Origin: Patescibacteria group bacterium
Lineage (GTDB): Bacteria > Patescibacteriota > Patescibacteriia > Patescibacteriales > UBA12465
Assembly (NCBI GenBank): GCA_049318005.1
Contig: JBMOHE010000001.1
Span: forward strand, 51,440-115,439
Reading direction: 5' to 3'
Length of the DNA stretch: 64,000 nucleotides
Both the position numbers and the translations under genes were made by a program. Under the pieces are notes generated by a model. The model was given only the letters and a program-made list of their open reading frames with translations, was not told where the DNA came from and made no database searches. Shown here one piece after another: positions 543 to 57,550 of this stretch. Every line of letters starts with the position of its first letter. The stretch's first letter is position 1.

Positions 543-1025
543 TTAATTTAAGTACCAAATTAAATAATTCAAAACTGAGGCAAAAGTTATCCAGGCAAGA
601 TAAGGAATTAATAAATAAGCCGAGGCTTTTTTAACTTGATAAAAATAATATATATTAACCACCACCATAGACATTAAAGAAATAATTGCCCAAAAAGCTA
701 AAGGCGGTTCTTTTACAAAAAAGAAAAGAAACGACCAGTAAATATTAAGAAAGAGTTGCGCCCCAAAACTCCAGCAAGCTGCCTTAAATTGCTTGCTTTC
801 TCGACCGTCTCTAAGAACTAAAAATAAGGCGACTCCCATTAAAATAAAAAGGATTGTCCAAACAGGTCCAAATAACCAATTGGGCGGATTAAAGCTAGGT
901 TTATTTAGGGCCATATACCAAGTATCAATACTTGGGGTTGTTAAGAGCGATCCCAAAAAGCCAACTATAAGCGGAATGGCTACGGAAAAAATCAACAAAC
1001 CAAAGTTTTTTAATTTTGTGTTCAT
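543..1025 (-). CDS. tspO: TspO/MBR family tryptophan-rich sensory protein
   Basis: 160 aa with five hydrophobic helices and the family signature WYMALNKPSFNPPNWLFGPVWTILFILMG. Confidence 0.85.
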   Translation of the reverse strand: MNTKLKNFGLLIFSVAIPLIVGFLGSLLTTPSIDTWYMALNKPSFNPPNWLFGPVWTILFILMGVALFLVLRDGRESKQFKAACWSFGAQLFLNIYWSFLFFFVKEPPLAFWAIISLMSMVVVNIYYFYQVKKASAYLLIPYLAWITFASVLNYLIWYLN

Positions 1026-1173: not shown

Positions 1174-1605
1174 TTATTTTATAGAGCCATTTTTTCCAAA
1201 ACCCATTCCCTGACCAGCGCCTTTTTCGATTCCTAGCTCTGTCATTATTGAATCAGCCTGCTTTCTTAAATTATGAGCCTCAACTAACTTCGGAAAATTA
1301 TCTTTAGTTATTTTAGTTAACATTGGATTATTAACACCAACGGCCACAACCCAAGCGTTGTAATCTCCATTAGTTATAGCAGCCTCAACCGCTTGCTGCC
1401 TCTTTAATCTATCCGCCTGATTAACTAATTTACTATCACCTGGTTTATGGTTAAGACCATTTAAATTTTGCGTGGGATTACCAGTATTTAAACCTCTATT
1501 TACTTTAGAAAGATTGGCTGCGCTTGAAACATTAGTTAATCCAATTACAGCAGCCGCTGCAATCATAATCGCGAGGCCAGATATAAATAATTTTTTGTTT
1601 TTCAT
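1174..1605 (-). CDS. small secreted protein, paralog of 53233..53640
   Basis: Signal/TM N-terminus. The core GDYNAWVVAVG..KDNFPKLVEAHNLRKQADSIMTELGI aligns with ..KDYNAWKNLMTG..KDNFAKFAEAHNLAEQGKTVEAQKIRQELGL of the island copy. Gly-rich tail. Last gene of an ECF sigma module. Confidence 0.6.
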   Translation of the reverse strand: MKNKKLFISGLAIMIAAAAVIGLTNVSSAANLSKVNRGLNTGNPTQNLNGLNHKPGDSKLVNQADRLKRQQAVEAAITNGDYNAWVVAVGVNNPMLTKITKDNFPKLVEAHNLRKQADSIMTELGIEKGAGQGMGFGKNGSIK

Positions 1606-1696
1606 AAAATTTAAGTTAATTTATTAATCGGACGCGATATCTTTCGTCCTTCACTTTAATAATACGCAAACAAAAATAATTTCTTTATTATATATT

Positions 1697-2500
1697 TTAG
1701 GGGTTCATAATCAATACCGGCGGTAAATTATTAACTTTCATTTTCTGTTTCATGGGAGACATCATTCCATTAAGACGATTAAAAAAATTGCGGCCGGCAT
1801 TCATAGGCAAAATTTTAACAGCGCTAAATTCATGATCATCAGTCTCCTCGCCCAATAAGCGAATTGGTTGGCTGATAATAATTATTTCTTTAGTGAAAGG
1901 CTGAGATTTTTCTGTATTAACAAGCCACTCTTCTCCGCCCCTATCAATTAAAATGAATTTACCTCCGTCATCAATTCCTATAACCACTCCAGATAAACGC
2001 CCCTCACTCGGCTTAGACCAAAAATCAACATGACGATTTATTACTTGATCGTAGAAAGGAGCTTGGCTACCTAAAATATTATCTAATTTTTCGCCCAGAC
2101 CTGCAAAGAAAAAAATTGTGCCTAAAATTATACTTAATATTACAGAGGCTCCAATAACATAGAAGGTTGTATAACGATAACCGCTCTTAGTATGTTTTAA
2201 ATTATAAGAAATTATTAAAACAAAAATTCCTAAAAATACAAACCAAAAATAAGGCAAAGTTAAAATAAAAAATTCCAGAAAGCTCTTTTTAGTTTGCTCA
2301 TATATCTCCCAATCATTAAATTTAAATAAATAAATCATTACTGAAATAGCCGCCGAGCCAATTATTAGAGACAATATACCGGCCAACCAGACTGTATAAT
2401 CCTTAAGCAAAAACTGCCAACGCGGTTTTGGACATATTTTACATTCTTTAATTTTTGCTAGTAATTTACTTTCAAAACCAGCATTCTTCTCATCTAACAT
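1697..2500 (-). CDS. polytopic membrane protein, putative anti-sigma partner of the upstream ECF sigma
   Basis: The start lies 4 nt after the sigma gene stop. A short cytoplasmic N-terminus (KIKECKICPKPRWQFLL) is followed by TM helices, the same layout as 52158..52619. Functional call is by position only. Confidence 0.45.
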   Translation of the reverse strand: MLDEKNAGFESKLLAKIKECKICPKPRWQFLLKDYTVWLAGILSLIIGSAAISVMIYLFKFNDWEIYEQTKKSFLEFFILTLPYFWFVFLGIFVLIISYNLKHTKSGYRYTTFYVIGASVILSIILGTIFFFAGLGEKLDNILGSQAPFYDQVINRHVDFWSKPSEGRLSGVVIGIDDGGKFILIDRGGEEWLVNTEKSQPFTKEIIIISQPIRLLGEETDDHEFSAVKILPMNAGRNFFNRLNGMMSPMKQKMKVNNLPPVLIMNP

Positions 2501-2503
2501 ATA

Positions 2504-3100
2504 TTAAAATTTAAAATTTTGATTCTCAAGCTCTAACTTAAATTCTTGCTTTGCCTTATTCATTAAAGAAGCAACTGTCCCCAATGGTTTTTTTAAAATA
2601 TCAGATATCTCCTGATAACTTTTCTCTTCTAAAAATTTCAAAACTAAAACATCTCGATATTTTGAATCAATCTTATTTAGAATTAAACTAATTGTTTTTT
2701 GTAAAATTTTAGCATCAACATTTCCTTTAATATCAATTTCAGCTGCCAAACTATTAGCTAGCTGGTCATCAATAGTTACTGAATACCCCTCCGGCCTAGC
2801 TTTTAACTTTCGATGACTACTAATTACTTGATTATGAGTAATACGATAAATCCAGGAGGAAAACTTTAAATCTTTATTAAAATCATTAAGATTCAAATAA
2901 ACCTTAATGAATATTTCCTGCAAAAGGTCTTCAACGTCCTCGTTATTAACATTAGTTAGTCTTTTAATATAACTAGACAATTTCCCTTTATACCTATCGA
3001 CTATATATACAAAGTTATTTTGATTAGCCAAAGTTAACCCCACGAGCTCGAGGTCGCTAAGATTAGAAATATCATTATTTGCTTGCTCTAAAATATTCAT
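2504..3100 (-). CDS. RNA polymerase sigma-70 factor, ECF subfamily
   Basis: Region 2 motif FSSWIYRITHNQVISSHRK and region 4 HTH SYQEISDILKKPLGTVASLMNKAKQEF. Confidence 0.85.
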   Translation of the reverse strand: MNILEQANNDISNLSDLELVGLTLANQNNFVYIVDRYKGKLSSYIKRLTNVNNEDVEDLLQEIFIKVYLNLNDFNKDLKFSSWIYRITHNQVISSHRKLKARPEGYSVTIDDQLANSLAAEIDIKGNVDAKILQKTISLILNKIDSKYRDVLVLKFLEEKSYQEISDILKKPLGTVASLMNKAKQEFKLELENQNFKF

Positions 3101-3241
3101 GCTTTTAAGTATAACACTTTAGTCAGCTTACTTAATAGTACGCTAAATTTAATATTTTCTTTTAAAAACCCTTGTCTAATTAATATATTATTGTTATTAT
3201 ATTACTTTGTTTCTAATAATCTAAAAATTATCTCAAGTAAT

Positions 3242-44309: not shown

Positions 44310-44381
44310 GGTCCCTTCGTCTAACGGTTAGGACATCAGATTCTCATTCTGATAACAGGGGTTCGATTCCCCTAGGGACTA
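44310..44381 (+). tRNA. trnE: tRNA-Glu (anticodon CTC), integration target
   Basis: GGTCCCTTCGTCTAACGGTTAGGACATCAGATTCTCATTCTGATAACAGGGGTTCGATTCCCCTAGGGACTA. Anticodon stem TCAGA/TCTGA, loop TT-CTC-AT, G1.U72 wobble. CCA is not encoded. Confidence 0.85.
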
Positions 44382-44601
44382 CTAATTAAAAAGTGCTCAG
44401 CGTTAGCTGGGCATTTTTTAATTAGACGGCGTTAGCCGAGGGGAATCGAACGGGTGGCAACGAGCTTAGCCGAAGGTCAGCAGACCGAGGCGTAGCGAGT
44501 GCCGACAAAAGCGAGCTGGCGCAGCTTTTGGCGCCACCCCTGGACAACGAAAGAACGAGCGACGGCGAGTGATTGAGGCGGAATTCCCCTAGGGACTACT
44601 A
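44376..44601 (+). repeat. left 226-bp direct repeat (attL-like), starts in the last 6 nt of tRNA-Glu
   Basis: GGACTACTAATTAAAAAGTGCTCAGCG...GAGGCGGAATTCCCCTAGGGACTACTA. I compared it base by base with 53815-54040 and found no difference. Confidence 0.85.
44388..44419 (+). terminator. tRNA-Glu terminator hairpin (inside the direct repeat; second copy at 53827-53858)
   Basis: AGTGCTCAGC-GTTA-GCTGGGCATT followed by TTTT. Its two G.U pairs form only on the plus strand. Confidence 0.6.
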
Positions 44602-46084: not shown

Positions 46085-46260
46085 AGAATTAAGGTTAATA
46101 AATAAAAAGAAAGCGGTGAAACTGTCGGACACAACTTAGCAAAAAGCCTTGTTGAAACAGCCACCGCTTTCTTTATATCAAAACGACCTTAGTCGCTTGG
46201 ATGTAAAATATAGTGACTTCTTGCTTTATAAGTTGTGTCCATTAGAGATATTAGCATATA

Positions 46261-46428
46261 TTATGATTTATTCAATATTAGATTATTTTTTCTTTTATCT
46301 TGGTAATGGTACTTACAAGCCAAACTAACCAACTGATAGATATCTCGCCGAATAGCGATAATCTCGTCTTCAGAATAATCATTAGCGTAAACGCCAAGAT
46401 TCTTTCTGATAACTTCTAAACTTAACAT
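46261..46428 (-). CDS. possible 55-aa protein between rep and the recombinase (below the ORF-track cutoff)
   Basis: My translation is MLSLEVIRKNLGVYANDYSEDEIIAIRRDIYQLVSLACKYHYQDKRKNNLILNKS. Supported by the open frame only. Its position would suit an accessory or directionality factor, which is speculative. Confidence 0.3.
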   Translation of the reverse strand: MLSLEVIRKNLGVYANDYSEDEIIAIRRDIYQLVSLACKYHYQDKRKNNLILNKS

Positions 46429-46478
46429 ATCTTTGGGGGATATGTTTACATCAAAGGAACTTTCAAAGAGGATATTTG

Positions 46479-47282
46479 TTATCCGTTTTTATAGAGCTGA
46501 TAACTAACTCTTCCGACCCATTCGGATCGGTACCACTTATCGACTAACAATTCAGATGGCAATTCTAGAGCATCTATAAACTGTCTTACTTTTAGAGCAC
46601 TAATAACAGTTTCCGGTCTTTTGAGTTTGCGAGAGTAAAAGATTTTCTTCTTGCCAGAGAGTCTTCCGTCAAACAATTCTTTAGCAATGTATTTAGATAC
46701 GTATAAACCCACTCGGGACACATGGCGAATATTGTTGATTTTAATAAAACCATAGCTCCATATTTCTTCCAGCCTACTGCTAGCTGTATATGGTAAATTA
46801 GAGAGTAAATGATAGTGAACGTTTCCGCCGCTTTCTTTCTTTATCTTTGTCTTAAAGTAATAATCTCCTTGAAACTCTGGGACGGCTAAATAAAGTAAAT
46901 CAGGATAAAACCTTTTTAGCCTTTTAATAAAGTTAGAAAATATTAAATTGCATTCTCTCATGTCGGTAAATGAGCCAGTCTTTGATTTGCTATTATCAAA
47001 GGTTAAAGTAATAAATACTTTTAGCTCCGGATTGGAATTCACTAGACGAACAATATTGGCTTTTGTCCGTCTTAGAGAAAAATCGCTTTTTACCGCTTGG
47101 TTAAAATCTTCTTGGTCTTTTTCTTCTTCGCTTTTAACGTCTTCAACACTGAGCATTGGTCTTTTTTGTTTTCTCTTTTTTCTCTTATGCCCGACTCTAA
47201 TCGCTTGCTCATAATAGTAGATTTCTATTATATCGCCTGATCTGATTAGCTTGTGCCGATAAGCTCGGATTGGTAAATCCAT
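46479..47282 (-). CDS. rep: HUH-superfamily rolling-circle replication initiator (Rep)
   Basis: Motif I FITLTF, motif II (HUH) NVHYHLL and motif III YVSKYIAKE (catalytic Tyr), in the canonical order and spacing. Confidence 0.7.
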   Translation of the reverse strand: MDLPIRAYRHKLIRSGDIIEIYYYEQAIRVGHKRKKRKQKRPMLSVEDVKSEEEKDQEDFNQAVKSDFSLRRTKANIVRLVNSNPELKVFITLTFDNSKSKTGSFTDMRECNLIFSNFIKRLKRFYPDLLYLAVPEFQGDYYFKTKIKKESGGNVHYHLLSNLPYTASSRLEEIWSYGFIKINNIRHVSRVGLYVSKYIAKELFDGRLSGKKKIFYSRKLKRPETVISALKVRQFIDALELPSELLVDKWYRSEWVGRVSYQLYKNG

Positions 47283-47296
47283 ATGCTTACGGCGTT

Positions 47297-47551
47297 AAGT
47301 GTGCCTATAGTCAAGTTAATAGGGCTACAGGGCACACTTCTTCGTCTTAAATCTCATTTACCGACCGCCCCCATTTTCTTTTTTCGGCTCCCCCAAGGGG
47401 ATGCCGCCAAAAAAAGAAAAAAACGGGGGGCGACCGGTCAAAATATGTTTTACCCCTCAAAGGAACAAAAGGGGTATTTTTGGTCTTATGAGAATAGACC
47501 ACTCGGCCAAACAAAAAACACAAGCGATATATCCGGATATATTGCTCGTGT
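47297..47551. promoter_or_regulatory. palindrome-rich region upstream of rep: candidate replication origin (dso/sso)
   Basis: Four elements: AAGTGTGCC (47297-305)/GGCACACTT (47331-339); a ~80-bp imperfect palindrome 47360-47438 centred on CCCCAAGGGG with poly-T/poly-A arms and G/C-rich outer ends; TACCCCT/AGGGGTA (47451-476); and the 34-bp palindrome ACACAAGCGATATATCC/GGATATATTGCTCGTGT (47518-551). Confidence 0.4.
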
Positions 47552-47755
47552 TTATAGTTGAGTTGGCAAAGATTCAGACTTTGCTTATTATTATATTGAA
47601 GACTGCATTTTTAAATTCATGGACGTAATCTGACTAGCCGTAGCTAGGGTCTATCTTCCTGCCTTATTATTGTTGATTAATAAGTCTATGAGAGTACTAT
47701 AGCAGAAAATTAGGGGAAAATCAATGGGCGAATTTATTGGCAATTTTTAAAGCTT

Positions 47756-47956
47756 TTAATTACGAGGGTCTTCATAGCATGTTTCGTTGCCATATTTATC
47801 TTCATAACAACCATGATTCCCTACCTTAACCCCTTTATTTCCACTTAATCCGGAGATTAAGGTCCAAATCCAAAAACATATAAGAACAACCCCTACAATA
47901 TACCAAAAAATTTTTCCCCAATCTATTTCTTTACTCATATACTTCACGTTAATCAT
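47756..47956 (-). CDS. small single-pass membrane protein
   Basis: 66 aa with TM helix IFWYIVGVVLICFWIWTLISGL and a Cys/Tyr/Glu-rich tail. Confidence 0.4.
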   Translation of the reverse strand: MINVKYMSKEIDWGKIFWYIVGVVLICFWIWTLISGLSGNKGVKVGNHGCYEDKYGNETCYEDPRN

Positions 47957-47997
47957 CTATAAATTTAATAGAATAATATTATCTTAATTTACTATGA

Positions 47998-49308
47998 TTA
48001 ATAGCATTTTACTGAAATTGTACTCACTGCACCAGTGAACAATGTTGAATAGCAACGAATTGGCTTGTATGACCGCAAATTATTATTACTCTGATTTATT
48101 TGATTAATATAATCACTTTGTATTTTATCTTGAGCTACTTTTTGCCTTTCATAAGAAGAAACTGTCTGTAAAAGTTCCCAGTATTTTACCAAAGTAGAAT
48201 CTTCAAGTTTTATATAGCTATTAAAACTGTCCACGAGACTAGCAAAAAATGCAGGATCTGAGGTAGGAGCTTCATCAAATTTAGCATAAGCCTCTACAAC
48301 AGAATTATAAGTTTTAGCATCAATAAAATCGGTAATTTGAACTTCATCGGCTATACCTTTTAATTTTATAGCAGAAGATTTTTTTTCGCTTGATAAATTT
48401 GATAAACTATTTGCCTTTTCTTTTAGCGTGCTAATAGAAGAATTATAATAATTCCCAACATTATATACTATTTTAATAACCTCTAAATCACTAGATGTTA
48501 AAAAATTTGAATTACTATCCGACAAGCCCTGTAAATAACTAGCTCTTGAATTATATAAATCTTTTACTTTATCAATGTAATCTAATAAATACTCATTTTT
48601 CTCAGAATATTTACTTTGAATATTCGCAATGTCTTTTTTATAATTATTACTTTGTGATATTTCAGAATCGCTAGGTTTACAAACAGGGTCTCCCGATGAA
48701 GGGCAATAAAATTTCTTGTCATTTTGGCAAGGTTGCCACTTTTTCCCATTACAATCTAAAAGATTAGAAGTATTTTTATCCGCTGTAGTGGTTTTTATTT
48801 CACTAACTGCAACTGAGCCACCGGCGTTATTGCTTATAGCAGAACTAGAAGTTGCACTTTGCTTATTTGATGATATCTTTTCAATATCTTTATTGGAAAT
48901 ACCTAAGCCTAAATTCCTCATTGCCGTATAAGCCTCTGAGCCATTTTTCAAATAATGAAGATTACCAGAAAAATCAACATAATAAGCCTCGCCTTTTGAT
49001 TCTACTTGTAAAAATATTTTTCCTTTGTGTTTTGAAGCTGCCGTCTTGCTGTTTTTCAATTTTTCCAAATCGCTATTTGTAATTCCAACTCCTAAATTAC
49101 GCATTATATTGTAAGCCTCATCTCCATTTGCCATGTAGTACTTTTCGGCAGTAGACGGATGAACATAATAAGCCTCACCCCTCGATTCTACTTGTAATAT
49201 TATCCTCCCTTTGAGCTTTTGTGCGATAGATGGAGTAGCTGCATTCGCCGGCAATGACGAGAACAGTGTTAACAATAACACCAACATAATTAAAATTTTT
49301 TGTTTCAT
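47998..49308 (-). CDS. secreted protein with duplicated N-terminal ~50-aa domain
   Basis: Signal peptide. KGRIILQVESRGEAYYVHP..YYMANGDEAYNIMRNLGVGITNSDLEKL is repeated as KGKIFLQVESKGEAYYVDF..HYLKNGSEAYTAMRNLGLGISNKDIEKI. The C-terminal 270 aa are unassigned. Confidence 0.55.
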   Translation of the reverse strand: MKQKILIMLVLLLTLFSSLPANAATPSIAQKLKGRIILQVESRGEAYYVHPSTAEKYYMANGDEAYNIMRNLGVGITNSDLEKLKNSKTAASKHKGKIFLQVESKGEAYYVDFSGNLHYLKNGSEAYTAMRNLGLGISNKDIEKISSNKQSATSSSAISNNAGGSVAVSEIKTTTADKNTSNLLDCNGKKWQPCQNDKKFYCPSSGDPVCKPSDSEISQSNNYKKDIANIQSKYSEKNEYLLDYIDKVKDLYNSRASYLQGLSDSNSNFLTSSDLEVIKIVYNVGNYYNSSISTLKEKANSLSNLSSEKKSSAIKLKGIADEVQITDFIDAKTYNSVVEAYAKFDEAPTSDPAFFASLVDSFNSYIKLEDSTLVKYWELLQTVSSYERQKVAQDKIQSDYINQINQSNNNLRSYKPIRCYSTLFTGAVSTISVKCY

Positions 49309-49569
49309 ATTTTTAAATATATTTTTTACACAAAAGGTCTTCCGAAACGGTTAACACACCCTTTCGGATATGCGCCTAGATAGCGAAAACCGGTCAGAAG
49401 ACCATCTCTGCTATCTAGGACTTAAGCCATGCCTTAATAAATTAAGGTTTAGGCCTATTAATTGTACTTAAAATTTATCAAAAAAAGGCCAAAAAGTCAA
49501 TTTATAACTTTTTGACTATTTATATATAGGGTAGTATTATTTAATCAATATTAATTCAAATAACCTTTT

Positions 49570-50019
49570 ATGCAAGATATATTACTAACCTCTAGTTTTA
49601 CAATAATCGGCGGTGTGATTATATTCGTTTTAGGTCAAATAATTGATAGATTTTTAATAAAACCAATTTTTGATCAAAAACAGATAATTGGAGAAATTCT
49701 TGATGCTTTAATTTTTTACGCAAATATTTATTCAAATCCATACACAACAGGTGACCAGAGCAAACACGACGATGCATCTCACAGAATTAGAGGGTTAGCA
49801 TCTAGTTTATTAGTAAAAACTAATTTAGTGCCTGGATATAAACTATTAAGCAAACTTAGAGTAACGATAAAAAGAGATAATATATCAAAGGCTCATACAG
49901 AATTAATAAGACTATCGAATTCGTTATATAGTCACCATTCTCAAGTAATAAATATTGGAATGCAAAATTCCGACACCGCAAACACGATAAAGAAATATCT
50001 CAATAACAATTTTAATTAA
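49570..50019 (+). CDS. hypothetical protein with N-terminal TM helix
   Basis: 149 aa with SSFTIIGGVIIFVLGQII as the TM helix. First of three co-oriented island genes that end with the Abi_2 neighbour. Confidence 0.45.
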   Translation: MQDILLTSSFTIIGGVIIFVLGQIIDRFLIKPIFDQKQIIGEILDALIFYANIYSNPYTTGDQSKHDDASHRIRGLASSLLVKTNLVPGYKLLSKLRVTIKRDNISKAHTELIRLSNSLYSHHSQVINIGMQNSDTANTIKKYLNNNFN

Positions 50020-50143
50020 TTTTTTGGCAATAAAAAAACCTATCGGGTTCGCATGGGCTTCGCAGCCCAGAGGCGTGATAGGTATTGATAATTAAAGTAT
50101 ACATTAATTTGCATAATGTCGCAATAAGATATTGTGGATAAAT

Positions 50144-51046
50144 ATGAAAGAGACTAATATTAAGCTAAAATATGACAAAAAACCATTAACCCTTGATGAG
50201 CAGGTAGGTCTTTTGAAAACCAGAGGGCTAATAATAGAAAGCGAGGAAGAGATAATATATTATTTAACAAATCTAAGCTATTATCATCTTTCTATTTATT
50301 TTAAATATTTTCAAAAAGACGATAAATTTTACGAAGGAATTACGTTCGGAGATATTTTGCGAATTTACATATTTGATAACAAGCTTCGATTTCTTTTATC
50401 TGAGGTGCTAGAGAGAATAGAAAAATCATTCAAGTGCAGGATGGTTTATTCATTATGTGTAGAAGAAGATGATTCTCACTGGCATTTAAATCAAAAATTT
50501 TTTGATTCTGAAGATAATTACTTAGGAATTATAAATATAATAACAGAAAACATTGATAAAAGTCGTGAATTGAGCATATTGCATTATAAGGAAACGTATT
50601 GTGACCCAGTTTTACCACCAATCTGGACAACGCTAGAAATCCTTTCTTTTGGACAATGCTGCCATATATATAATTCATTAAAAAAAGAATACAGAAATAA
50701 AATTTCCAGATCTTTTGGAGAAGATGAAAAGTTCATAAATAATTGGATGCTATGTTCATCTTTATTAAGAAACCATTGTGCTCACTATTCTAGACTGTGG
50801 AACAGAACTTTAACATATACACCAAAAATGAATCATGATTCATATAAAAAATACTTTAATAATGGAAATAAACGGATATATAATTATTTAGTTGTTTTAC
50901 AAATACTATTAAATGAAATAAACCCAACATCATCCTGGTTAGACAAATTAAAGGAACTCATAAATGAATATAAAATTAATGTTAAACAAATGGGTTTTCC
51001 GGAGGATTGGGAAAATAAATTAAAAGAAATAATTACAAATAAGTAA
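50144..51046 (+). CDS. Abi_2 family (AbiD/AbiF-like) abortive-infection protein
   Basis: PLTLDEQVGLLKTRGLII, LSYYHLSIYFKYF, ITFGDILRIYIFDNKLRFLL and LRNHCAHYSRLWNR (HEPN-type R-N-x-x-A-H). The track start at 50132 is a TTG; I prefer the ATG at 50144. Confidence 0.85.
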   Translation: MKETNIKLKYDKKPLTLDEQVGLLKTRGLIIESEEEIIYYLTNLSYYHLSIYFKYFQKDDKFYEGITFGDILRIYIFDNKLRFLLSEVLERIEKSFKCRMVYSLCVEEDDSHWHLNQKFFDSEDNYLGIINIITENIDKSRELSILHYKETYCDPVLPPIWTTLEILSFGQCCHIYNSLKKEYRNKISRSFGEDEKFINNWMLCSSLLRNHCAHYSRLWNRTLTYTPKMNHDSYKKYFNNGNKRIYNYLVVLQILLNEINPTSSWLDKLKELINEYKINVKQMGFPEDWENKLKEIITNK

Positions 51047-51140
51047 AAATCACTCTAAGCACTCTACCCATATTTAACTTCTCCCAATAATCTTACTTTT
51101 TACAAACATTTGTTTTGAGATAGTAAGACTATTAATTATT

Positions 51141-51986
51141 ATGAACAATGAAATCACAAAATTAAATTTAGAAAAGTTTGCTCATGATTCTCATTCATTT
51201 TATAAAGCGACTTATCATATCATGGAAGAAGCGGAAGAAAAGAGGGTTTTGCAATACATATTAACTGATGAAATTAATTCCCAGTATATTTATAGCGATA
51301 AATGTAGAGGTGGCTATTCAACTATGAATTTTTTAAATGAAACTTACCTAACTGGAGACCAGGAAACTTTTTTATCTTTTTTTAACGAAATATTACCGAA
51401 TATAATTAAATATACGAATTGCGCGGAATGGCAAGTTAAAGAAATACATGCTAATTTATTCCCCATAATTTACAAATTTGCTGCTATTATATATAAATCA
51501 AATAACGAGAGTGTATTTAATCTTGATTTTTATTATGATAAAGAAACACATAATTTTAAAAGAAAGTTAGACGAAGTCTCAATGGAATCTATTAATTTTA
51601 ACGATGCAAACTTAGACGGTGATAATAAAACGCGATATCAAGAATGTGTATCTGACTTCCTCTCGTATAAGAAGGATAGTGCAAAAAGCAATAAATTATT
51701 CTACAACGAATCATTAGACAGATTAAAGAGAGTTGTTGAAAATACCTTGCAAAATAAATACAAGAAACCAGACGGAAGTTCCCCAAGGATACATGACAAA
51801 AAGGAACTATCTAACATACTATTCGATAATAACAACCCTGATTTTGAAAATCTTATTGGTTATATAGTAAAGAATGTTCACCACGAAGAAGGTGGAACCC
51901 CTAAAAACTTTAGCGAAAAAGAATATCTATATTTGTGGCTTGAACTGAATAAAATATTATATCTATTAAATAGATATAAAAAGTAA
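51141..51986 (+). CDS. hypothetical protein adjacent to Abi_2
   Basis: 281 aa, no family recognised. The C-terminal IGYIVKNVHHEEGG is weakly reminiscent of the RN..HG motif of Abi_C/HEPN-like domains (Lys instead of Arg). Confidence 0.45.
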   Translation: MNNEITKLNLEKFAHDSHSFYKATYHIMEEAEEKRVLQYILTDEINSQYIYSDKCRGGYSTMNFLNETYLTGDQETFLSFFNEILPNIIKYTNCAEWQVKEIHANLFPIIYKFAAIIYKSNNESVFNLDFYYDKETHNFKRKLDEVSMESINFNDANLDGDNKTRYQECVSDFLSYKKDSAKSNKLFYNESLDRLKRVVENTLQNKYKKPDGSSPRIHDKKELSNILFDNNNPDFENLIGYIVKNVHHEEGGTPKNFSEKEYLYLWLELNKILYLLNRYKK

Positions 51987-52080
51987 GAGGAATTAATCAT
52001 AAAACTTCCGCCCACTTCTCAATTTCCCCAATAATTTCAACTATTTTTTCGGAAACTTGCGACTTTAAGACTACAAATCA

Positions 52081-52112
52081 AAAAATACCCAACTTTCATT
52101 GGGTATTTTTTA
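52081..52112. terminator. bidirectional terminator between convergent 51141..51986 and 52158..52619
   Basis: AAAAATACCCAA-CTTTCA-TTGGGTATTTTTT. Confidence 0.7.
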
Positions 52113-52157: not shown

Positions 52158-52619
52158 TTATTTTATAAGGCGAGAACAATTATTTTTTCCATAGATTCTA
52201 TTCATGCATCCTTGACGAGAAAAAAGATCATTTAAACCAATCACATCAACTAAATATCCAGCAATAATTATGGCGGCCACAAAGCCAACTATAACTATTT
52301 TAAAATTTATTTTATAGGAGAAATCATATTTACGGATTAACCTTAATCCGATTACTAATCCTAGAAATGCTAATATTACCGCCCACCAAGGAAAACTCGC
52401 TAACAGTTGTTCAAAGCGATATTGCCCCATCGGACCGTGTGAACGCAAAGAAAATCTAATCAGACCAAAAAGAAAGACGGAGCTTAGAGCTGATAATATT
52501 AAACTAACAAAAACTAAAACCGAACCAATAATAAAATATAGCTTGGGACGCATTTTTAACTTTCCGTGACGAATTTCGCCCATTATACTATCGGAAATAT
52601 TTTTTAATTCTTTTGACAT
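52158..52619 (-). CDS. membrane protein, putative anti-sigma partner (island copy)
   Basis: Overlaps the sigma gene by 16 nt. The N-terminal GEIRHGKLKMRPKLYFIIG, then TM helices, parallel 1697..2500 (KIKECKICPKPRWQFLL). Confidence 0.45.
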   Translation of the reverse strand: MSKELKNISDSIMGEIRHGKLKMRPKLYFIIGSVLVFVSLILSALSSVFLFGLIRFSLRSHGPMGQYRFEQLLASFPWWAVILAFLGLVIGLRLIRKYDFSYKINFKIVIVGFVAAIIIAGYLVDVIGLNDLFSRQGCMNRIYGKNNCSRLIK

Positions 52620-53146
52620 ATACGTTTAATTAATGTTTTTGCTCTACTTATGCGGGTAGCGACCGTTCCCATCGGCAGTCTCAAAATATCGCTTATTTCT
52701 TCATAAGATTTTTCGTCAATATAATATAAGCGCAACGGTTCGGCATACAACAAAGGCATCTTGGCAAAGCATTTTTCAACTTTAGACGCAATTTCTTGTT
52801 TTTCAAAATTTAACTCAAGATCTTCCTCACTCTTAAAATCTATATTTTCTAAAATTGGCACCTCTCTTCTGTATTTTTTAGCGATATTTATGGCTTCATT
52901 ATGAACAATACGATAAATCCAGCTAGAAAATTTTTTTTTAGTATTAAAGCCCCGTAAATTTATAAAGGCCTTTATAAAAGATTCCTGAACAATATCAGCG
53001 GCATTATGCTCATCTTGAATTAAATTAGTTGCATAACGCAAAAGCTTTTCTTGATATCTTTCTATAATAACAGCATAAAACTCCTGATCTTCAGATCGGA
53101 CGCGCTCAATAATTTCTTCATCAGAAAGTAAGCTATTTTCACTCAT
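52604..53146 (-). CDS. RNA polymerase sigma-70 factor, ECF subfamily (island copy)
   Basis: FSSWIYRIVHNEAINIAKK (region 2) and SYEEISDILRLPMGTVATRISRAK (region 4). Paralog of 2504..3100. Confidence 0.85.
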   Translation of the reverse strand: MSENSLLSDEEIIERVRSEDQEFYAVIIERYQEKLLRYATNLIQDEHNAADIVQESFIKAFINLRGFNTKKKFSSWIYRIVHNEAINIAKKYRREVPILENIDFKSEEDLELNFEKQEIASKVEKCFAKMPLLYAEPLRLYYIDEKSYEEISDILRLPMGTVATRISRAKTLIKRICQKN

Positions 53147-53232
53147 AATATCAATTATAACAAAATCAAACTAACTATACACTAAGCCCCGAATTAATCA
53201 GGGCATAGTGCATAATAATAAACTTTATTGCT

Positions 53233-53640
53233 CTAACGATTCATTCCTCTGCCCGTGCTCATTCTGCCAGCACCTTTGCCACTGCCATTCTGTAATCCAC
53301 AACCAGAACCTGAGCCATTGTTCAAACCCAAACCGAGTTCTTGGCGAATTTTTTGTGCTTCTACTGTTTTGCCTTGTTCTGCTAAATTATGGGCCTCAGC
53401 GAACTTGGCAAAATTGTCTTTATTAATGACCTGCGTAACTCGGCCATTCCCTGTCATAAGATTTTTCCAAGCATTATAGTCTTTATTCTCAAATGCCTGT
53501 TCCATGGCCGCATGACGATCTGCTGAGTAGTTTGGTCCCTTAACACTTGGGTCGCCTTGATAAGCAAAAACAGCGTTAGCGGATAAACCCACGATACCAA
53601 TTATAGCTAAAGCGCCTAAACCTAATGTAATTTTTTTCAT
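53233..53640 (-). CDS. small secreted protein, paralog of 1174..1605 (island copy)
   Basis: Signal peptide, ENKDYNAWKNLMTG..KDNFAKFAEAHNLAEQGK..IRQELGLGL and a Gly/Ser-rich tail. Confidence 0.6.
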   Translation of the reverse strand: MKKITLGLGALAIIGIVGLSANAVFAYQGDPSVKGPNYSADRHAAMEQAFENKDYNAWKNLMTGNGRVTQVINKDNFAKFAEAHNLAEQGKTVEAQKIRQELGLGLNNGSGSGCGLQNGSGKGAGRMSTGRGMNR

Positions 53641-53814
53641 ATATTTTTATAATTTAATAATTTATGGTTATATTCGACCTTTCGCCTCTAATACAAAGCT
53701 GAAAGCTATTTTCTTTCAAACCTACTAATTTACATAACTATCTTTCTAAAATTTCCGCCCACTTCTCAATTTCCCCAATAATTTCATTAAAATTTTGAGA
53801 AATTTCAGAGCGTA

Positions 53815-54040
53815 GGACTACTAATTAAAAAGTGCTCAGCGTTAGCTGGGCATTTTTTAATTAGACGGCGTTAGCCGAGGGGAATCGAACGGGTGGCAAC
53901 GAGCTTAGCCGAAGGTCAGCAGACCGAGGCGTAGCGAGTGCCGACAAAAGCGAGCTGGCGCAGCTTTTGGCGCCACCCCTGGACAACGAAAGAACGAGCG
54001 ACGGCGAGTGATTGAGGCGGAATTCCCCTAGGGACTACTA
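53815..54040 (+). repeat. right 226-bp direct repeat (attR-like)
   Basis: Identical to 44376-44601 by manual comparison (offset 9439 bp). Confidence 0.85.
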
Positions 54041-54077
54041 GTTAAGAAAAGACGTGTTTCAGGACACGTCTTTTCTA

Positions 54078-54901: not shown

Positions 54902-56323
54902 ATGAATTTATTAAAACTCATATCAAGCGAAGAGATAATTGGTGGTCTAGAAATAGCTGACGACAGCCTACGTTTTATTTTACTTAAAAACAATAAAACA
55001 GAAATTGAAACAAAGCTTATTTGCGAAGAAAAGTTATCACCTAAAGAGAGTTTAGCTAATTTAGATTTGTTTTTAAAAAAACTATCTATCTTTGTAAAAC
55101 AAAACCATATCAAATACACAATTATCTCCCTTCCCGCCGACAATATTTTTTTAAAGCTCTATAAATTCCCTGTGGCAATTCCAGATGAAAAAATAAGCGA
55201 ATCAATGAAATTAAATATAGATCTGCAATTACCAAAGAAAAAAGAAGATATTTATTGCGACTGGATGAAATTAGAGAAAACAGAAACTAGTCAAAAAGTT
55301 CTCCTCTCCTACATTAAAAAAGATTACGCTCAAAAACTATTTGCAATTTTTAAGAAAGCTGGAGTAAAAATAATCGCCGTAGAAACACATGCTCTGAGTC
55401 TTTCAAGGACAATAAAACAAATTCCCGGCGAAGCTCTCTTAATAGTTGAAAGATCCTATGATAATACTTCTTTTTCTGTTTTAGAAAATAATAACTTAGT
55501 TTTTTTACAAAATTCTCCAAACGAAAAAATAAGCAAAAATCTAAACGAAGAAATTGAAAAAATTGTTAATTTTCACGATTGGGGGGATATAGTAATTAAA
55601 AAATTATTTTTAATAGGTGATTTTTCTGAAAAAGAAACAAAGAATTTACCAATAAAAATAAGCTCTTTAAAAGAAGAAGTCGAGGATAAAAAACAAGCTC
55701 TAGACAAAAAATGGCTAATTTCTTTAGGAGCGGCAAAGCGCGGCTTAATACCAAGAAAAGATGACAACATAATCAGCTTAATGGAAATTGGAACAGAAAA
55801 AGCCTACAAACAAGAAAAAGCGAACATTAGCGCAGATTTTTTTATGGGAATTAGCATTGCTCTTTCGATATTTTTTATAGCTATATTTTTTACTACCTGG
55901 TCATTTATCTCGATGATGCAAGGAAATTATAATAAACGAATTAGCTCCTTAAGCCTATTGCCTGGGTCAGAAAACGGCGTATTACTAAAAGAAAAAGCAG
56001 ATATTTTTAACAACTTAATATCGGAAACTAAACAATTAACACAGACTGAAGCTCGCTGGAGTAAGGTAATTGAAGAAATAAAAAATAAGTTAAGCCAGGA
56101 TATAAAAGTTAGCACCCTATCTTTACCAAGTGCAGATGGAATCTTTACAATAACAGGCACGGCTCTAAATCGGGAATCAATTAATAGCCTAAAAAAATCG
56201 TTTGAATCATCAAATTTATTTTCTGATATAGATATTCCTTTAAATAATCTTGGCAAAAAGAACGATATCCCCTTTTCAATGACTTTCAAAATTAAAGATA
56301 GCCAATTAATCTACACAAAATGA
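54902..56323 (+). CDS. PilM-like actin-fold pilus assembly protein fused to a PilN-like TM segment
   Basis: N-terminal IGGLEIADDSLRFILL, SLPADNIFLKLYKFPVAIPDEKISESMKLNIDLQLP and AVETHALSL are PilM-like. A TM helix FFMGISIALSIFFIAIFFTTW at about aa 310 is followed by a PilN-like periplasmic region. Confidence 0.55.
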   Translation: MNLLKLISSEEIIGGLEIADDSLRFILLKNNKTEIETKLICEEKLSPKESLANLDLFLKKLSIFVKQNHIKYTIISLPADNIFLKLYKFPVAIPDEKISESMKLNIDLQLPKKKEDIYCDWMKLEKTETSQKVLLSYIKKDYAQKLFAIFKKAGVKIIAVETHALSLSRTIKQIPGEALLIVERSYDNTSFSVLENNNLVFLQNSPNEKISKNLNEEIEKIVNFHDWGDIVIKKLFLIGDFSEKETKNLPIKISSLKEEVEDKKQALDKKWLISLGAAKRGLIPRKDDNIISLMEIGTEKAYKQEKANISADFFMGISIALSIFFIAIFFTTWSFISMMQGNYNKRISSLSLLPGSENGVLLKEKADIFNNLISETKQLTQTEARWSKVIEEIKNKLSQDIKVSTLSLPSADGIFTITGTALNRESINSLKKSFESSNLFSDIDIPLNNLGKKNDIPFSMTFKIKDSQLIYTK

Positions 56324-56886
56324 AACTCATCAACACTAATTTCAAAATTAAAATAATTTCGAAAATAATAATTATTATTGGTGTTCTTTTGCCCGCCCTT
56401 ATCTCAATATATTTTTTTAGCCAACAAATTAAAAAAATAAATATTAGCTTAATGGAAAGAAAGGAAATGGATTATATTGTTTCTAATCAGGAAGCTATAA
56501 ACACTAAAATAAGAAGTGAATTTTCACAAGTAGACCCGGAATACAAAGAAAAAATTATTAGCTCACTACCATCGGTTTATAACATTCTTGATTTTGTTGA
56601 TGCAATGGAAAGCCTTGCAATAAAACATTCTTATAAACAAAGCTTGAGCTTCTCTCCCCCAGTAGACGCGCCGGAAATTAACGGGCTAATATCAGTTAAG
56701 GCGATTAATTTCAATTTAATAATCAATGAAACTAATCTCGAGAATTTCATCTCTTATTTAAAAGAATTTGAAGGCCTACCTTACTTTGTTTCAATTACTA
56801 GCATAAACCAAGCAAGCGTTAGTCTTGATGGTTTGCAAAAAAACTCTTCAATTAATATCAGTGGTCGTCTATATGCAAAACAATAA
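56320..56886 (+). CDS. PilO-like bitopic membrane protein
   Basis: 4-nt overlap with the PilMN gene. N-terminal TM helix, a coiled segment and an alpha/beta C-terminus. Assigned by architecture and position. Confidence 0.4.
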   Translation: MKLINTNFKIKIISKIIIIIGVLLPALISIYFFSQQIKKINISLMERKEMDYIVSNQEAINTKIRSEFSQVDPEYKEKIISSLPSVYNILDFVDAMESLAIKHSYKQSLSFSPPVDAPEINGLISVKAINFNLIINETNLENFISYLKEFEGLPYFVSITSINQASVSLDGLQKNSSINISGRLYAKQ

Positions 56887-57550
56887 TCAAATTAATAAAA
56901 CAAAACGAACGGAGCGCGAAGAAATTGTCTACGCGACTATTTTTGTTTTATACTTCGGTTTTATTATTTTAATTTTTGCTTATTCTGTTAAATTCTTAGG
57001 AGAAACGATAAACGCTGTTTTAAGTGATCCTCAGGGAAAAGCTAACGAAGAAAGTTACGGCCAGCTTAATCTTGAATCCTATTTATTAATTAGCGATAAA
57101 CTAAAATTAAACAATGCAATAAACAATAATAATTCAGATAAAGAATTATTAAATAGAGCCATTGCCACTTCAAGCGAAGAGATAATGAATAAGGAGGTGA
57201 TCGCAACTAGTTCAGATTTAAGCATAAAAGATGAAATTTCAAATAATACTTTAGATTCTATTGTTGAGGAAATTAGACCGACTATTATTGTGATGAATTC
57301 AACTGTAAAGTCTGGTCTAGCCTCAAAGTTAAAAACAAAACTTGAGAAGGCTGGTTTCACTGTTTTAAAATCAGGCAACCTAAAACCGACTAAAGACATT
57401 AGTATAATTTATTTAAGTAAATCATTTGATCAAAACTCTAAATATCTTTTTGAAATAAAAAAAATCGTTTCTGAAGATTACAACTTCGTGATTCTTCCTC
57501 TTGAAAACGATTCTCAATCAGACATCCAAATAATAATCGGAAATCAATAA
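56873..57550 (+). CDS. membrane-anchored LytR_C-domain protein
   Basis: I prefer the ATG at 56873 (MQNNNQ). TM helix, then C-terminal IIVMNSTVKSGLASKLKTKLEKAGFTVLKSGNLKPTKDISIIYL, which matches the LytR C-terminal domain pattern. Confidence 0.5.
   Translation: MQNNNQINKTKRTEREEIVYATIFVLYFGFIILIFAYSVKFLGETINAVLSDPQGKANEESYGQLNLESYLLISDKLKLNNAINNNNSDKELLNRAIATSSEEIMNKEVIATSSDLSIKDEISNNTLDSIVEEIRPTIIVMNSTVKSGLASKLKTKLEKAGFTVLKSGNLKPTKDISIIYLSKSFDQNSKYLFEIKKIVSEDYNFVILPLENDSQSDIQIIIGNQ

What the first reader, a model, noticed from the sequence alone, without database searches (positions are those of the whole stretch)
52158..53640. Duplicated ECF-sigma / membrane protein / small secreted protein triad: one chromosomal, one island-borne, with permuted gene order
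Seen: 2504..3100 and 52604..53146 are paralogous ECF sigmas (FSSWIYRI(T/V)HN, SY(Q/E)EISDIL..P(L/M)GTVA). Each is followed, with overlap or a 4-nt gap, by a membrane protein with a similar basic N-terminus. Each triad also includes a small secreted protein sharing (G/K)DYNAW...KDNF(P/A)K(L/F)(V/A)EAHNL... and a Gly-rich tail. In the chromosomal copy the order is sigma, membrane, secreted (3100 down to 1174). In the island copy it is secreted, sigma, membrane (53640 down to 52158). Inference: the small secreted protein is a conserved third component of this signalling module, perhaps a ligand, a co-sensor or the main regulon product. The module is mobile. I do not recognise the secreted protein's family.
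Basis: partly seen in the sequence, partly recalled or inferred. Interest (0 to 1): 0.55.

Follow-up and report, generated by a model that had tools for sequence, protein, structure and literature searches.

The report
Conserved CPR sigma / anti-sigma / secreted-protein module
Both gene triads are real copies of a three-gene stress-signalling module found across the tiny "candidate phyla radiation" (CPR) bacteria, in which an alternative sigma factor appears to switch on a small secreted protein of unknown family, but the claim that one copy rides on a mobile island is not supported.

Summary
The two ECF sigmas are paralogues (36% identity, E 4e-31). So are the two small secreted proteins (40%, E 2e-15). 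The two membrane proteins are related at profile level (hhalign 94%, E 1e-7).

The triad is not peculiar to this genome. In 80 Patescibacteria loci found through the small protein S, 75 have the sigma E next to it and 70 also the membrane protein M. The order is S-E-M in 69 loci and E-M-S in 2.

An ECF-type promoter, TGAAAGAAAA-N13-T(T/C)GTAnTA, lies upstream of S in 66 loci. In the 64-kb window the relaxed pattern hits three sites only: upstream of both S genes and of the E-M-S sigma.

In S-E-M operons a covarying hairpin follows S. An extended -10 box then sits 6-8 nt before the sigma ATG.

Best reading: M is a new 3-TM anti-sigma, and S is the main sigma-dependent output, working like ZraP/CpxP/Spy. 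Membership of that family was tested and not shown. S and M have no Pfam family and no fold match.

Copy B lies beside an integrated element, not demonstrably inside it. Even so, it is far more similar to relatives than its neighbour genes are.

This is a new variant of a known kind.

The parts
53689..53717 (-). ECF-type promoter of copy B: GAAAGAAAATAGCTTTCAGCTTTGTATTA (-35 TGAAAG, -10 TGTA).
   Evidence: Only exact match in the window, 0 expected by shuffling. The same motif with fixed spacing lies upstream of S in 66 related loci. Nucleotide homology to relatives begins sharply at 53718.
53233..53640 (-). S(B): small secreted protein, 135 aa. It has a signal-peptide-like N-terminus (cleavage inferred after VFA), a ~65-aa helical core with DYNAW / NFAKFAEAH / ELGLG, and a Gly/Met/Arg-rich tail.
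   Evidence: ORF. More than 2000 homologues, all 'hypothetical' and with no Pfam family above threshold. 2398 clusters at 50% identity. AF2 core pLDDT ~85, tails disordered.
53177..53213 (-). Intercistronic hairpin between S and the sigma gene. Inferred to be a partial terminator or an mRNA 3'-end stabiliser.
   Evidence: MFE fold. Across 26 loci there are 15 consensus pairs, 13 with compensatory changes. The terminator scan did not call it because there is no clean T-run.
53154..53162 (-). Extended -10 box TGTTATAAT, ending 7 nt before the sigma ATG. Inferred housekeeping promoter giving a leaderless or near-leaderless E-M mRNA.
   Evidence: A -10-like hexamer starts at -14 to -12 in 30 of 73 loci. 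Any other single position has at most 3 loci. The box is visible as an aligned block in A4.
52604..53146 (-). E(B): ECF sigma factor, 180 aa.
   Evidence: Sigma70_r2 plus Sigma70_r4_2. The best named relative is SigW, at 116 bits against a cutoff of 209.
52158..52619 (-). M(B): 153-aa membrane protein, putative anti-sigma. It has an N-terminal cytoplasmic helix (residues 3-17), 3 TM helices, a conserved loop R.HGPMG.YR..Q..SSFPWW, and a tail motif RRGPM.G. Its gene overlaps the sigma gene by 16 nt.
   Evidence: ORF. Alignment A3. At least 1240 homologues with no Pfam family. AF2 model. No PDB fold match.
52079..52112 (-). Intrinsic terminator after M(B). It lies within the downstream copy of the flanking repeat.
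   Evidence: Terminator scan: 15-pair stem followed by a T-run.
52000..52112 (-). Direct repeat, downstream copy (terminator hairpin plus ATTATTGGGGAAATTGAGAAGTGGGCGGAA).
   Evidence: the repeat finder family D1. The 30-nt core occurs exactly twice in the window. The same element is present in L001 and L003.
53747..53859 (-). Direct repeat, upstream copy, immediately 5' of the copy-B promoter.
3136..3163 (-). ECF-type promoter upstream of sigA: AAAAGAAAATATTAAATTTAGCGTACTA (-10 CGTA).
   Evidence: One of only three relaxed-motif hits in the window. Sequence read. All four other E-M-S loci examined also have such a promoter upstream of E.
2504..3100 (-). E(A): ECF sigma factor, 198 aa.
1697..2500 (-). 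M(A): 267-aa membrane protein. The N-terminal helix and 3-TM core are homologous to M(B). It has an extra ~130-aa C-terminal domain, inferred to be extracytoplasmic.
   Evidence: hhalign against the M profile: probability 94%, E 1.1e-7. Closest relatives are the M genes of the E-M-S loci L078 and L070.
1660..1687 (-). Second ECF-type promoter, upstream of S(A): TAAAGAAATTATTTTTGTTTGCGTATTA.
   Evidence: The S genes of L070, L078, L082 and L084 have the same kind of promoter.
1174..1605 (-). S(A): divergent 143-aa member of the same secreted-protein family.
   Evidence: P0001 matches its last 130 residues in alignment A2.

Best explanation
Both triads are copies of a three-gene extracytoplasmic-stress module that is conserved across Patescibacteria (CPR).

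**Shown**
- An ECF sigma (E) is encoded next to a membrane protein (M). The two genes overlap or nearly abut. M has one short N-terminal helix and three predicted TM helices.
- A small protein (S) with a signal-peptide-like N-terminus is almost always adjacent.
- S always carries a SigW-like ECF promoter, TGAAAG-N17-(T/C)GTA.
- There are two architectures.
  - Class B (window copy B): P_ECF, S, covarying hairpin, extended -10 box, E-M.
  - Class A (window copy A): P_ECF, E-M, then a second P_ECF, S. M is longer, and S can have 1-3 repeats.

**Inferred mechanism**
1. M is the anti-sigma. Its N-terminal helix holds E at the membrane.
2. In class B, E-M is made at a basal level from the internal housekeeping promoter as a leaderless mRNA.
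3. An envelope signal is sensed through M's conserved outer loop and tail. In class A it may be sensed through the extra C-terminal domain. The signal is possibly thiol, redox or metal(loid) stress, judging by the neighbouring genes. Sensing releases E.
4. E-RNAP then transcribes S strongly. Read-through of the hairpin (class B) or the sigma's own promoter (class A) gives positive feedback.
5. S is exported and acts in the envelope as a protective chaperone-like factor. It may also feed back on M. This is how ZraP, CpxP and Spy behave as the top targets and modulators of their own envelope-stress systems.
For: - **Paralogy** of all three components.
- **Linkage.** 75 of 80 loci have E next to S and 70 of 80 have M. 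The order is S-E-M in 69 loci and E-M-S in 2. Independent gene calls show E-M-S for the 2-repeat S protein P0056 and the 3-repeat P0244.
- **Promoter.** A relaxed motif lies upstream of S in 66 loci. Only 8 degenerate hits occur elsewhere in the roughly 777 kb of loci. The window has three hits, all at module genes. An exact pattern has 1 hit against 0 expected. Spacing is 14 nt in 63 of 68 cases. All five class-A loci have promoters before both E and S. L049 has S alone and still has the promoter.
- **Hairpin.** 13 of 15 pairs show compensatory changes.
- **Extended -10 box.** It is positionally enriched at -14 to -12 from the E start codon, in 30 of 73 loci.
- **M anatomy.** AF2 gives a cytoplasmic helix at residues 3-17, three long helices, and a conserved loop helix at 63-75. 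The E and M genes overlap in essentially all loci.
- **Likeness of S to ZraP.** Both have a signal peptide, a helical core and a Gly/Met-rich tail. Repeat-bearing members start each unit with LTxEQR. There are weak hits to ZraP and Metal_resist. hhalign against a ZraP profile gives 58% probability and E 1e-4.
- **Neighbours.** ArsR, glutaredoxin, ArsP permease, YgaP-TM, Trx/TrxR or rhodanese genes sit in 33 of 80 loci, many of them right beside the module.
Against: - No experiment exists and nothing was found in the literature.
- M's cytoplasmic N-terminus is only about 24 residues, a single helix. That is shorter than any characterised anti-sigma domain. M has no Pfam, NCBIfam or PDB match.
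- A sigma-M co-fold could not be run.
- S does not pass any test for the LTXXQ family. Its best Pfam score is 23.2 bits against a cutoff of 29.2. It has no PDB sequence hit at E <= 10. Foldseek gives no match. The AF2 core is five short helices, not a long hairpin.
- The hairpin lacks a canonical U-tract.
- -10-like hexamers are common in AT-rich DNA.
- Only +/-6 kb flanks and one 64-kb window were scanned, so other regulon members are not excluded.
- The redox and metalloid neighbours have no background control and carry no ECF promoter.
Confidence: 0.6

Rival explanations
1. S is an upstream co-sensor or ligand, not an output. It would bind M's extracytoplasmic loop and set the anti-sigma's state, as CnrX does for CnrY, or RseB for RseA.
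For: S is linked to E-M in both gene orders. M has strongly conserved extracytoplasmic segments, HGPMG and RRGPM.G. S has weak Metal_resist (CnrX family) hits. Being an output does not exclude also being a feedback ligand.
Against: S is the gene that carries the sigma-dependent promoter. In class B it is separated from E-M by a hairpin and an internal promoter, so it is not made together with the sensor at basal level. S can occur alone with the promoter (L049) or in tandem copies (L006). CnrX-type membership was tested and not met.
Confidence: 0.2
2. The module is specifically a metal(loid) or thiol-stress regulator, and S is a metal-binding protein like ZraP. The ars, trx and grx neighbours would be its functional partners.
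For: 33 of 80 loci have ArsR, Grx, ArsP, YgaP-TM, Trx-TrxR or rhodanese genes within the flanks, many of them right beside the module. The closest relatives L001, L003 and L013 embed S-E-M between arsR-trx-arsP and arsR-acr3-trxR. S has a Gly/Met-rich tail and an invariant His.
Against: The window's own two copies have no such neighbours. The neighbours carry no ECF promoter. There is only one invariant His per domain and no conserved Cys. No background frequency for these genes in CPR genomes was measured.
Confidence: 0.2
3. Copy B is cargo of a mobile element. The triad would spread as a cassette.
For: A large serine recombinase, a Rep protein and Abi_2 lie at 44.4-51.0 kb next to tRNA-Glu. 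113-nt direct repeats bracket exactly promoter-S-E-M. The module is 88% identical to L013 at nucleotide level and 88-94% at protein level, while syntenic neighbours are 36-50% identical. Close relatives have it in different contexts.
Against: In L003 the order is module, same repeat element, tRNA-Glu. So the module's position is collinear, and the recombinase element lies between the repeat and the tRNA, outside the module. The repeats flank the module, not the recombinase element. S-E-M is the canonical arrangement across CPR. All three proteins are unusually conserved everywhere (60-80% identity between classes), so constraint could explain part of the discordance.
Confidence: 0.2

Closest known systems
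ZraP / CpxP / Spy (LTXXQ periplasmic modulators of envelope-stress systems, Proteobacteria)
   Same: Each is a small exported helical protein whose gene is the prime target of the stress system encoded next to it. ZraP also has a Gly/Met-rich C-terminal tail, and E. coli zraP sits beside zraSR. Multi-repeat S proteins begin each unit with LTxEQR. There is weak profile similarity.
   Different: The regulator here is an ECF sigma with a membrane protein, not a two-component system. Family membership is not shown: Pfam scores are below threshold, there is no PDB sequence or fold hit, and the predicted core is five short helices. The hosts are CPR bacteria, which are thought to lack an outer membrane (general knowledge, not tested here).
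CnrYXH / NccYXH of Cupriavidus (ECF sigma CnrH, small membrane anti-sigma CnrY, periplasmic sensor CnrX)
   Same: It is a three-component ECF system with a very short anti-sigma cytoplasmic domain and a small extracytoplasmic helical third protein (from my own knowledge of that system). Pfam Metal_resist (PF13801), which I recall as CnrX's family (not checked here), gives the only recurring weak hit for S.
   Different: The gene order differs. CnrY is single-pass, while M has three predicted TM helices. CnrX is a membrane-anchored sensor made together with its partners, whereas S is the promoter-proximal inducible gene. S is not detectably homologous to CnrX.
Bacillus subtilis SigW-RsiW (ECF30)
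   Same: SigW is the closest named sigma. The promoter TGAAAG-N17-(T/C)GTA resembles the sigma-W consensus TGAAAC-N16-CGTA (consensus recalled from the literature).
   Different: The sigma scores far below the SigW equivalog cutoff (116 and 102 bits against 209). RsiW is a single-pass zf-HC2 anti-sigma, and M has no such domain. SigW operons have no S-like gene.
Caulobacter SigF-NrsF (multi-pass membrane anti-sigma with a short N-terminus)
   Same: It is a polytopic membrane anti-sigma that senses through extracytoplasmic loops and responds to metal stress (from my own knowledge).
   Different: No sequence relation was detected. M matches no Pfam family, so it matches no NrsF model either. NrsF has six TM helices and no secreted partner.

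Membership tests
ECF (group 4) sigma-70 factors | Sigma-2 and sigma-4 domains present; sigma-1.1 and sigma-3 absent; about 180-200 aa | tested here: met
   Both sigmas hit Sigma70_r2 and Sigma70_r4_2 above threshold and nothing else. TIGR02937 scores 87-90 bits against a cutoff of 42.9.
ECF (group 4) sigma-70 factors | Bipartite ECF-type promoter at its own operon or at an adjacent target | tested here: met
   TGAAAGAAAA-N13-T(T/C)GTAnTA occurs in 66 loci, and in the window only at module genes. Function was not tested.
ECF (group 4) sigma-70 factors | Assignment to a numbered ECF group (ECF Hub HMMs) | not testable with these tools
   No ECF-group models are available. The classification paper's main text does not mention CPR, and no supplements are held.
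SigW equivalog (NF007223 / TIGR02948) | Score above the curated equivalog cutoff | tested here: not met
   116.4 and 101.6 bits against a cutoff of 209.
Class I anti-sigma factors (ASD; zf-HC2, RskA and related) | N-terminal anti-sigma domain of about 4 helices, detectable by Pfam | tested here: not met
   Neither M, nor any of 30 relatives, hits an anti-sigma family. The AF2 model shows a single helix, residues 3-17, before TM1.
Anti-sigma factor (functional sense) | Encoded next to, and co-translated with, its sigma; binds and inhibits it | tested here: inconclusive
   The genes overlap or abut in essentially all loci.
LTXXQ / Metal_resist family (CpxP, Spy, ZraP, CnrX) | Pfam PF13801 or PF07813 above the gathering score | tested here: not met
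   PF13801 was hit by 9 of 31 members. The best score is 23.2 bits against 29.2, and that alignment includes the signal peptide. PF07813 was never hit.
LTXXQ / Metal_resist family (CpxP, Spy, ZraP, CnrX) | Sequence or fold similarity to solved members | tested here: not met
   A profile search of the PDB at E <= 10 returns none of them. Foldseek's best hit has E 2.1 and is unrelated.
LTXXQ / Metal_resist family (CpxP, Spy, ZraP, CnrX) | Profile-profile similarity to ZraP | tested here: inconclusive
   hhalign gives probability 57.9% and E 1e-4 over 98 collinear columns, which include the signal peptide and the Gly-rich tail.
LTXXQ / Metal_resist family (CpxP, Spy, ZraP, CnrX) | LTXXQ motifs at helix starts | tested here: inconclusive
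   LTEEQR and LTDEQR are present in the repeat-bearing member P0243. The equivalent positions in the window proteins are degenerate: YSADRH and ADRLKRQ.
Cargo of an integrative genomic island | Located between the island's ends, together with its integrase | tested here: inconclusive
   The recombinase, Rep and Abi_2 genes lie at 44.4-51.0 kb beside tRNA-Glu. The module lies beyond a repeat element that also precedes tRNA-Glu in L003, and the island's far boundary is not defined.

The most novel reading that the evidence does not exclude
S and M could be a CPR-specific ligand-receptor pair. In this reading the sigma-induced secreted S protein binds the conserved outer loop or tail of a minimal 3-TM anti-sigma and closes a self-contained feedback loop. 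The whole 1.6-kb unit, promoter included, would be exchanged horizontally between CPR lineages as a plug-in envelope-stress (or host-contact) circuit. It would then be one of the few regulatory circuits shared across this radiation, built from two protein families with no known relatives.
Probability: 0.2. Interest if true: 0.75.

Novelty: new variant of a known kind. Interest (0 to 1): 0.58.

Why it matters
CPR bacteria have tiny genomes, few regulators and almost no experimentally understood signalling. This module has three notable properties.

- **It is widespread.** S is found in about 2400 clusters at 50% identity. M is found in more than 1200 clusters at 90% identity.
- **It is unusually conserved.** S is 60-80% identical between CPR classes.
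- **Its wiring is clear.** The target gene comes first. A hairpin follows, and then an internal promoter that appears to give a leaderless sigma / anti-sigma transcript.

It provides a defined promoter, a sigma and a single obvious target. These could be tested in a heterologous host or in the few cultivable CPR co-cultures. It also adds a minimal three-TM candidate anti-sigma type and a new secreted-protein family to the ECF repertoire. If S works like ZraP, CpxP or Spy, it would mark the main envelope-stress response of these organisms.

Tried and rejected
1. **Pfam and NCBIfam on S and M.** Only sub-threshold noise came back: ZraP at E 0.034, and Metal_resist at 23 bits or less.
2. **PDB searches.** A PDB sequence-profile search with the S family gave nothing relevant at E <= 10. 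Foldseek searches of the PDB with the AF2 models of S and of M found no hit at E <= 0.001; the best E was 2.1.
3. **Sigma-M co-fold.** A fused sigma-linker-M paired alignment was built to co-fold the complex.
4. **ECF group assignment from the literature.** The classification paper has no CPR mention in its main text, and no supplements are held. Three other literature searches found nothing on a CPR ECF triad.
5. **Rfam on 51.8-54.4 kb.** Only a sub-threshold sRNA hit came back, at a terminator. Folding the GC-rich spacer gave weak z-scores of -1.3 and -2.0.
6. **Generic sigma-70 promoter and terminator scan.** It did not call the internal -10 box or the S-E hairpin, because they have no -35 element and no T-run. 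The evidence for both therefore rests on cross-locus conservation.
7. **S as a lipoprotein or a Phr-type peptide: rejected.** Those hits cover only the MKK...hydrophobic N-terminus, and there is no lipobox Cys.
8. **S as a bacteriocin or RiPP precursor: rejected.** This rests on its very high conservation across CPR and its tandem-domain variants.
9. **Non-CPR taxon labels not taken at face value.** Some loci are labelled Burkholderiales, Planctomycetota, Thermoplasmata or Gammaproteobacteria. Their GC content is 0.30-0.44, which looks too low for those labels, so mislabelled or mis-binned MAG contigs seem likely.
Full report

Yes. On the minus strand, copy A reads sigma (2504-3100), membrane protein (1697-2500), small protein (1174-1605). 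Copy B reads small protein (53233-53640), sigma (52604-53146), membrane protein (52158-52619).

- Both sigmas have only Sigma70_r2 and Sigma70_r4_2. They are 36% identical, E 4e-31.
- The small proteins share 40% identity over 82 residues, E 2e-15, including DYNAW, KDNF.K..EAHNL and Gly-rich tails.
- The membrane proteins are barely similar pairwise (E 0.025). The copy-A protein nonetheless aligns to a profile of 30 copy-B-type proteins over 131 columns, covering the N-terminal helix and all three TM segments (hhalign probability 94%, E 1.1e-7).
- sigB and memB overlap by 16 nt. sigA and memA are 3 nt apart.

**2. How general is the triad?**

I call the small protein S, the sigma E and the membrane protein M.

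A profile of the two S proteins finds more than 2000 proteins. The 120 best hits that were listed are short (mostly ~110-140 aa), unnamed, and come from Patescibacteria/CPR lineages: Falkow-, Moran-, Buchanan-, Doudna-, Gracili- and Peregrinibacteria, Paceibacteria, Microgenomates and others. An exhaustive profile search gives 2398 clusters at 50% identity. Many of these have two or three tandem copies of the ~75-aa domain.

I fetched 80 genomic loci through S alone and searched their ORFs with the window proteins.

| Arrangement | Loci |
|---|---|
| E adjacent to S | 75 of 80 |
| M also present | 70 of 80 |
| S-E-M order on one strand | 69 |
| E-M-S order | 2 |
| S alone, cut by a contig end | 2 |
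| S alone, genuinely without E-M within 6 kb | 3 |

Independent gene calls show E-M-S around a two-repeat S (P0056) and a three-repeat S (P0244). The M family has at least 1240 members, all unnamed and without a Pfam family.

Some loci carry non-CPR taxon labels. Their GC content is 0.30-0.44, which looks too low for those labels, so I treat the labels as unreliable.

**3. Regulatory anatomy**

*The promoter upstream of S.* Nearly every locus has aTGAAAGAAAA, 13 bases, then T(T/C)GTAnTA.
- A relaxed pattern hits 66 loci upstream of S. Only 8 degenerate matches occur elsewhere in the roughly 777 kb of loci.
- Spacing is 14 nt in 63 of 68 cases.
- In the window the exact pattern occurs once, at 53689-53717, against 0 expected.
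- The relaxed pattern occurs three times in the window: upstream of S(B), of sigA (3136-3163) and of S(A) (1660-1687).
- The geometry is TGAAAG-N17-(T/C)GTA. This resembles the B. subtilis sigma-W consensus (recalled from the literature). SigW is also the closest named sigma, although far below the equivalog cutoff.

*Class A loci.* All five E-M-S loci examined (window, L070, L078, L082, L084) have such a promoter in front of both E and S. Four of the five use CGTA at -10. Class B uses TGTA, which may insulate the two paralogous modules from each other.

*Between S and E in S-E-M operons.*
- A 10-18-bp hairpin is kept through compensatory changes. Across 26 loci, 13 of 15 pairs covary. In the window it lies at 53177-53213.
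- An extended -10 box follows. The -10-like hexamer that follows the TG of this box (TGnTAtAAT) starts at -14 to -12 from the E start codon in 30 of 73 loci. Any other single position has at most 3 loci. In the window the box is at 53154-53162.

I infer two things from this. A basal housekeeping promoter gives a leaderless or near-leaderless E-M transcript. The hairpin uncouples the amount of S from the amount of E-M.

**4. The proteins**

*S.*
- It has a signal-peptide-like N-terminus with a nearly invariant A-Y junction.
- The helical core has pLDDT of about 85, and both ends are disordered.
- The invariant residues are mostly aromatic or structural, plus one His.
- It has no Pfam family, no PDB sequence hit and no Foldseek hit.

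The only recurring lead is the ZraP / Metal_resist family.
- NCBIfam ZraP scores E 0.034.
- PF13801 scores at most 23.2 bits against a cutoff of 29.2.
- Repeat-bearing members start each unit with LTxEQR and end it with ELGLP plus a Gly/Met-rich segment.
- hhalign against a ZraP profile built from real homologues gives probability 58% and E 1e-4. That alignment includes the signal peptide and the tail.

I therefore treat S as working like ZraP, CpxP or Spy, but not as a shown member of that family.

*M.*
- The AF2 model (pLDDT 67) shows one cytoplasmic helix at residues 3-17, three long helices and a conserved loop helix.
- It has the motifs R.HGPMG.YR..Q..SSFPWW and RRGPM.G.
- It has no fold match.
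- Class-A M proteins add a C-terminal domain of about 130 aa.

**5. Mechanism**

*Shown:* the linkage, the promoters and the intercistronic elements.

*Inferred:*
- M is a minimal polytopic anti-sigma.
- An envelope signal frees E.
- E transcribes S as its main, perhaps only, local target.
- S acts in the envelope and may feed back on M.

*The nature of the signal is open.* 33 of 80 loci have ArsR, glutaredoxin, ArsP permease, YgaP-TM, Trx/TrxR or rhodanese genes within the flanks, many of them right beside the module. The closest relatives embed S-E-M in an ars/trx cluster. The window's own copies lack these genes, the neighbours carry no ECF promoter, and I had no background control.

**6. 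Island and mobility**

A large serine recombinase (44477-46132), a Rep protein (46479-47282) and Abi_2 (50132-51046) lie next to tRNA-Glu at 44310-44382. This is probably an integrated element.

*Evidence that copy B lies outside it.*
- In relative L003 the order is S-E-M, ars genes, a ~140-nt element, one ORF, tRNA-Glu.
- In the window the order is S-E-M, the same element (52000-52112), the recombinase block, tRNA-Glu.
- Copy B is therefore collinear with a relative and lies outside the inserted block.

*Hints of horizontal exchange.*
- A second copy of the element (53747-53859) sits just upstream of the S promoter, so 113-nt direct repeats bracket the module exactly.
- Nucleotide homology to six relatives starts at 53718 and ends at the M stop codon or just beyond it.
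- S, E and M are 92, 94 and 88% identical to L013, while two syntenic neighbour genes are 50 and 36% identical.

These hints suggest horizontal exchange or gene conversion, but strong constraint is an alternative. I leave mobility open.

**7. Verdict**

- The 'conserved third component' idea is supported and sharpened: S is the sigma-dependent output.
- The chromosomal-versus-island contrast is not supported.
- The system is an ECF sigma / anti-sigma module of a known general kind, with a new candidate anti-sigma type, a new secreted partner family and a distinctive operon design.
- It is a new variant of a known kind, of moderate to good interest for CPR biology and for ECF signalling.

Noticed in passing
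window 44310-51986: Probable integrated mobile element next to tRNA-Glu. It contains a large serine recombinase (44477-46132), a Rep_ORF2/G2P-like replication protein (46479-47282), three ORFs without a family, and an Abi_2 abortive-infection protein (50132-51046). GC drops to 0.28 at 50-52 kb.
   Followed up: partly
window 52000-52112 and 53747-53859; L001 135-213; L003 10158-10307: A ~113-nt element made of a terminator hairpin plus the exact 30-nt core ATTATTGGGGAAATTGAGAAGTGGGCGGAA. It occurs as direct repeats that bracket promoter-S-E-M exactly. It recurs in two relatives at other positions around the ars/S-E-M cluster. Its nature is unknown (att-like site, recombination scar or regulatory element).
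   Followed up: partly
window 53862-54050: A GC-rich stretch of about 190 nt with no ORF of 50 aa or more, in a 34% GC genome, between the upstream repeat and the next gene. It has no Rfam match. Folding z-scores are -1.3 (minus strand) and -2.0 (plus strand).
   Followed up: partly
5' leaders of S in L001-L080; window 53650-53688: A conserved AGAAAGGTCGA follows the -10 box. In lineages with short leaders the same position reads AGAAAGGAGGTG, a Shine-Dalgarno sequence. In several lineages AGAAAG pairs with a downstream CTTTCT, with covarying variants AGAGAT/ATCTCT and TATAGAG/CTCTATA. This could be a leader hairpin or a relic ribosome-binding site. Copy A has GGACG...CGTCC at 1630-1649.
   Followed up: partly
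L006 1034-2377: Two S-family genes in tandem before E-M. Each appears to have its own copy of the ECF-type promoter. The upstream S-family protein is longer (~260 aa).
   Followed up: no
window 543-1025; L005, L043, L061, L066, L080: A TspO/MBR gene lies directly downstream of S(A) on the same strand, after a terminator. TspO homologues also lie within 6 kb of the module in five related loci.
   Followed up: partly
L001, L003, L013 and 30 other loci: Thiol, redox and metalloid genes lie within the flanks of the module in 33 of 80 loci, many of them right beside it: ArsR, glutaredoxin, Thioredoxin_3, ArsP permease, ACR3-type SBF, YgaP-like TM, Trx-TrxR fusion and rhodanese. No background control was available.
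   Followed up: partly
window 3874-4890: A 338-aa secreted-looking protein with an internal duplication (…EAAKQKLEKISNPGEIKNFDKIQKIGAALWGVKK… / …EAAKQELEKISSPSEIKFFEKIQKIGTALWGIKR…). It has no Pfam family.
   Followed up: no
window 54902-57550 and 58518-62702: A fused PilM/PilN-like protein and neighbouring small ORFs lie just beyond copy B, suggesting a type IV pilus assembly cluster. A 1394-aa ORF on the opposite strand was not examined.
   Followed up: no
L012, L014, L050, L061 and several 'uncultured Gammaproteobacteria' TPA loci: These contigs carry the module and have GC of 0.30-0.44, yet are labelled Planctomycetota, Thermoplasmata, Burkholderiales, Draconibacterium or Gammaproteobacteria. 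They are probably mis-binned or mislabelled CPR contigs.
   Followed up: partly
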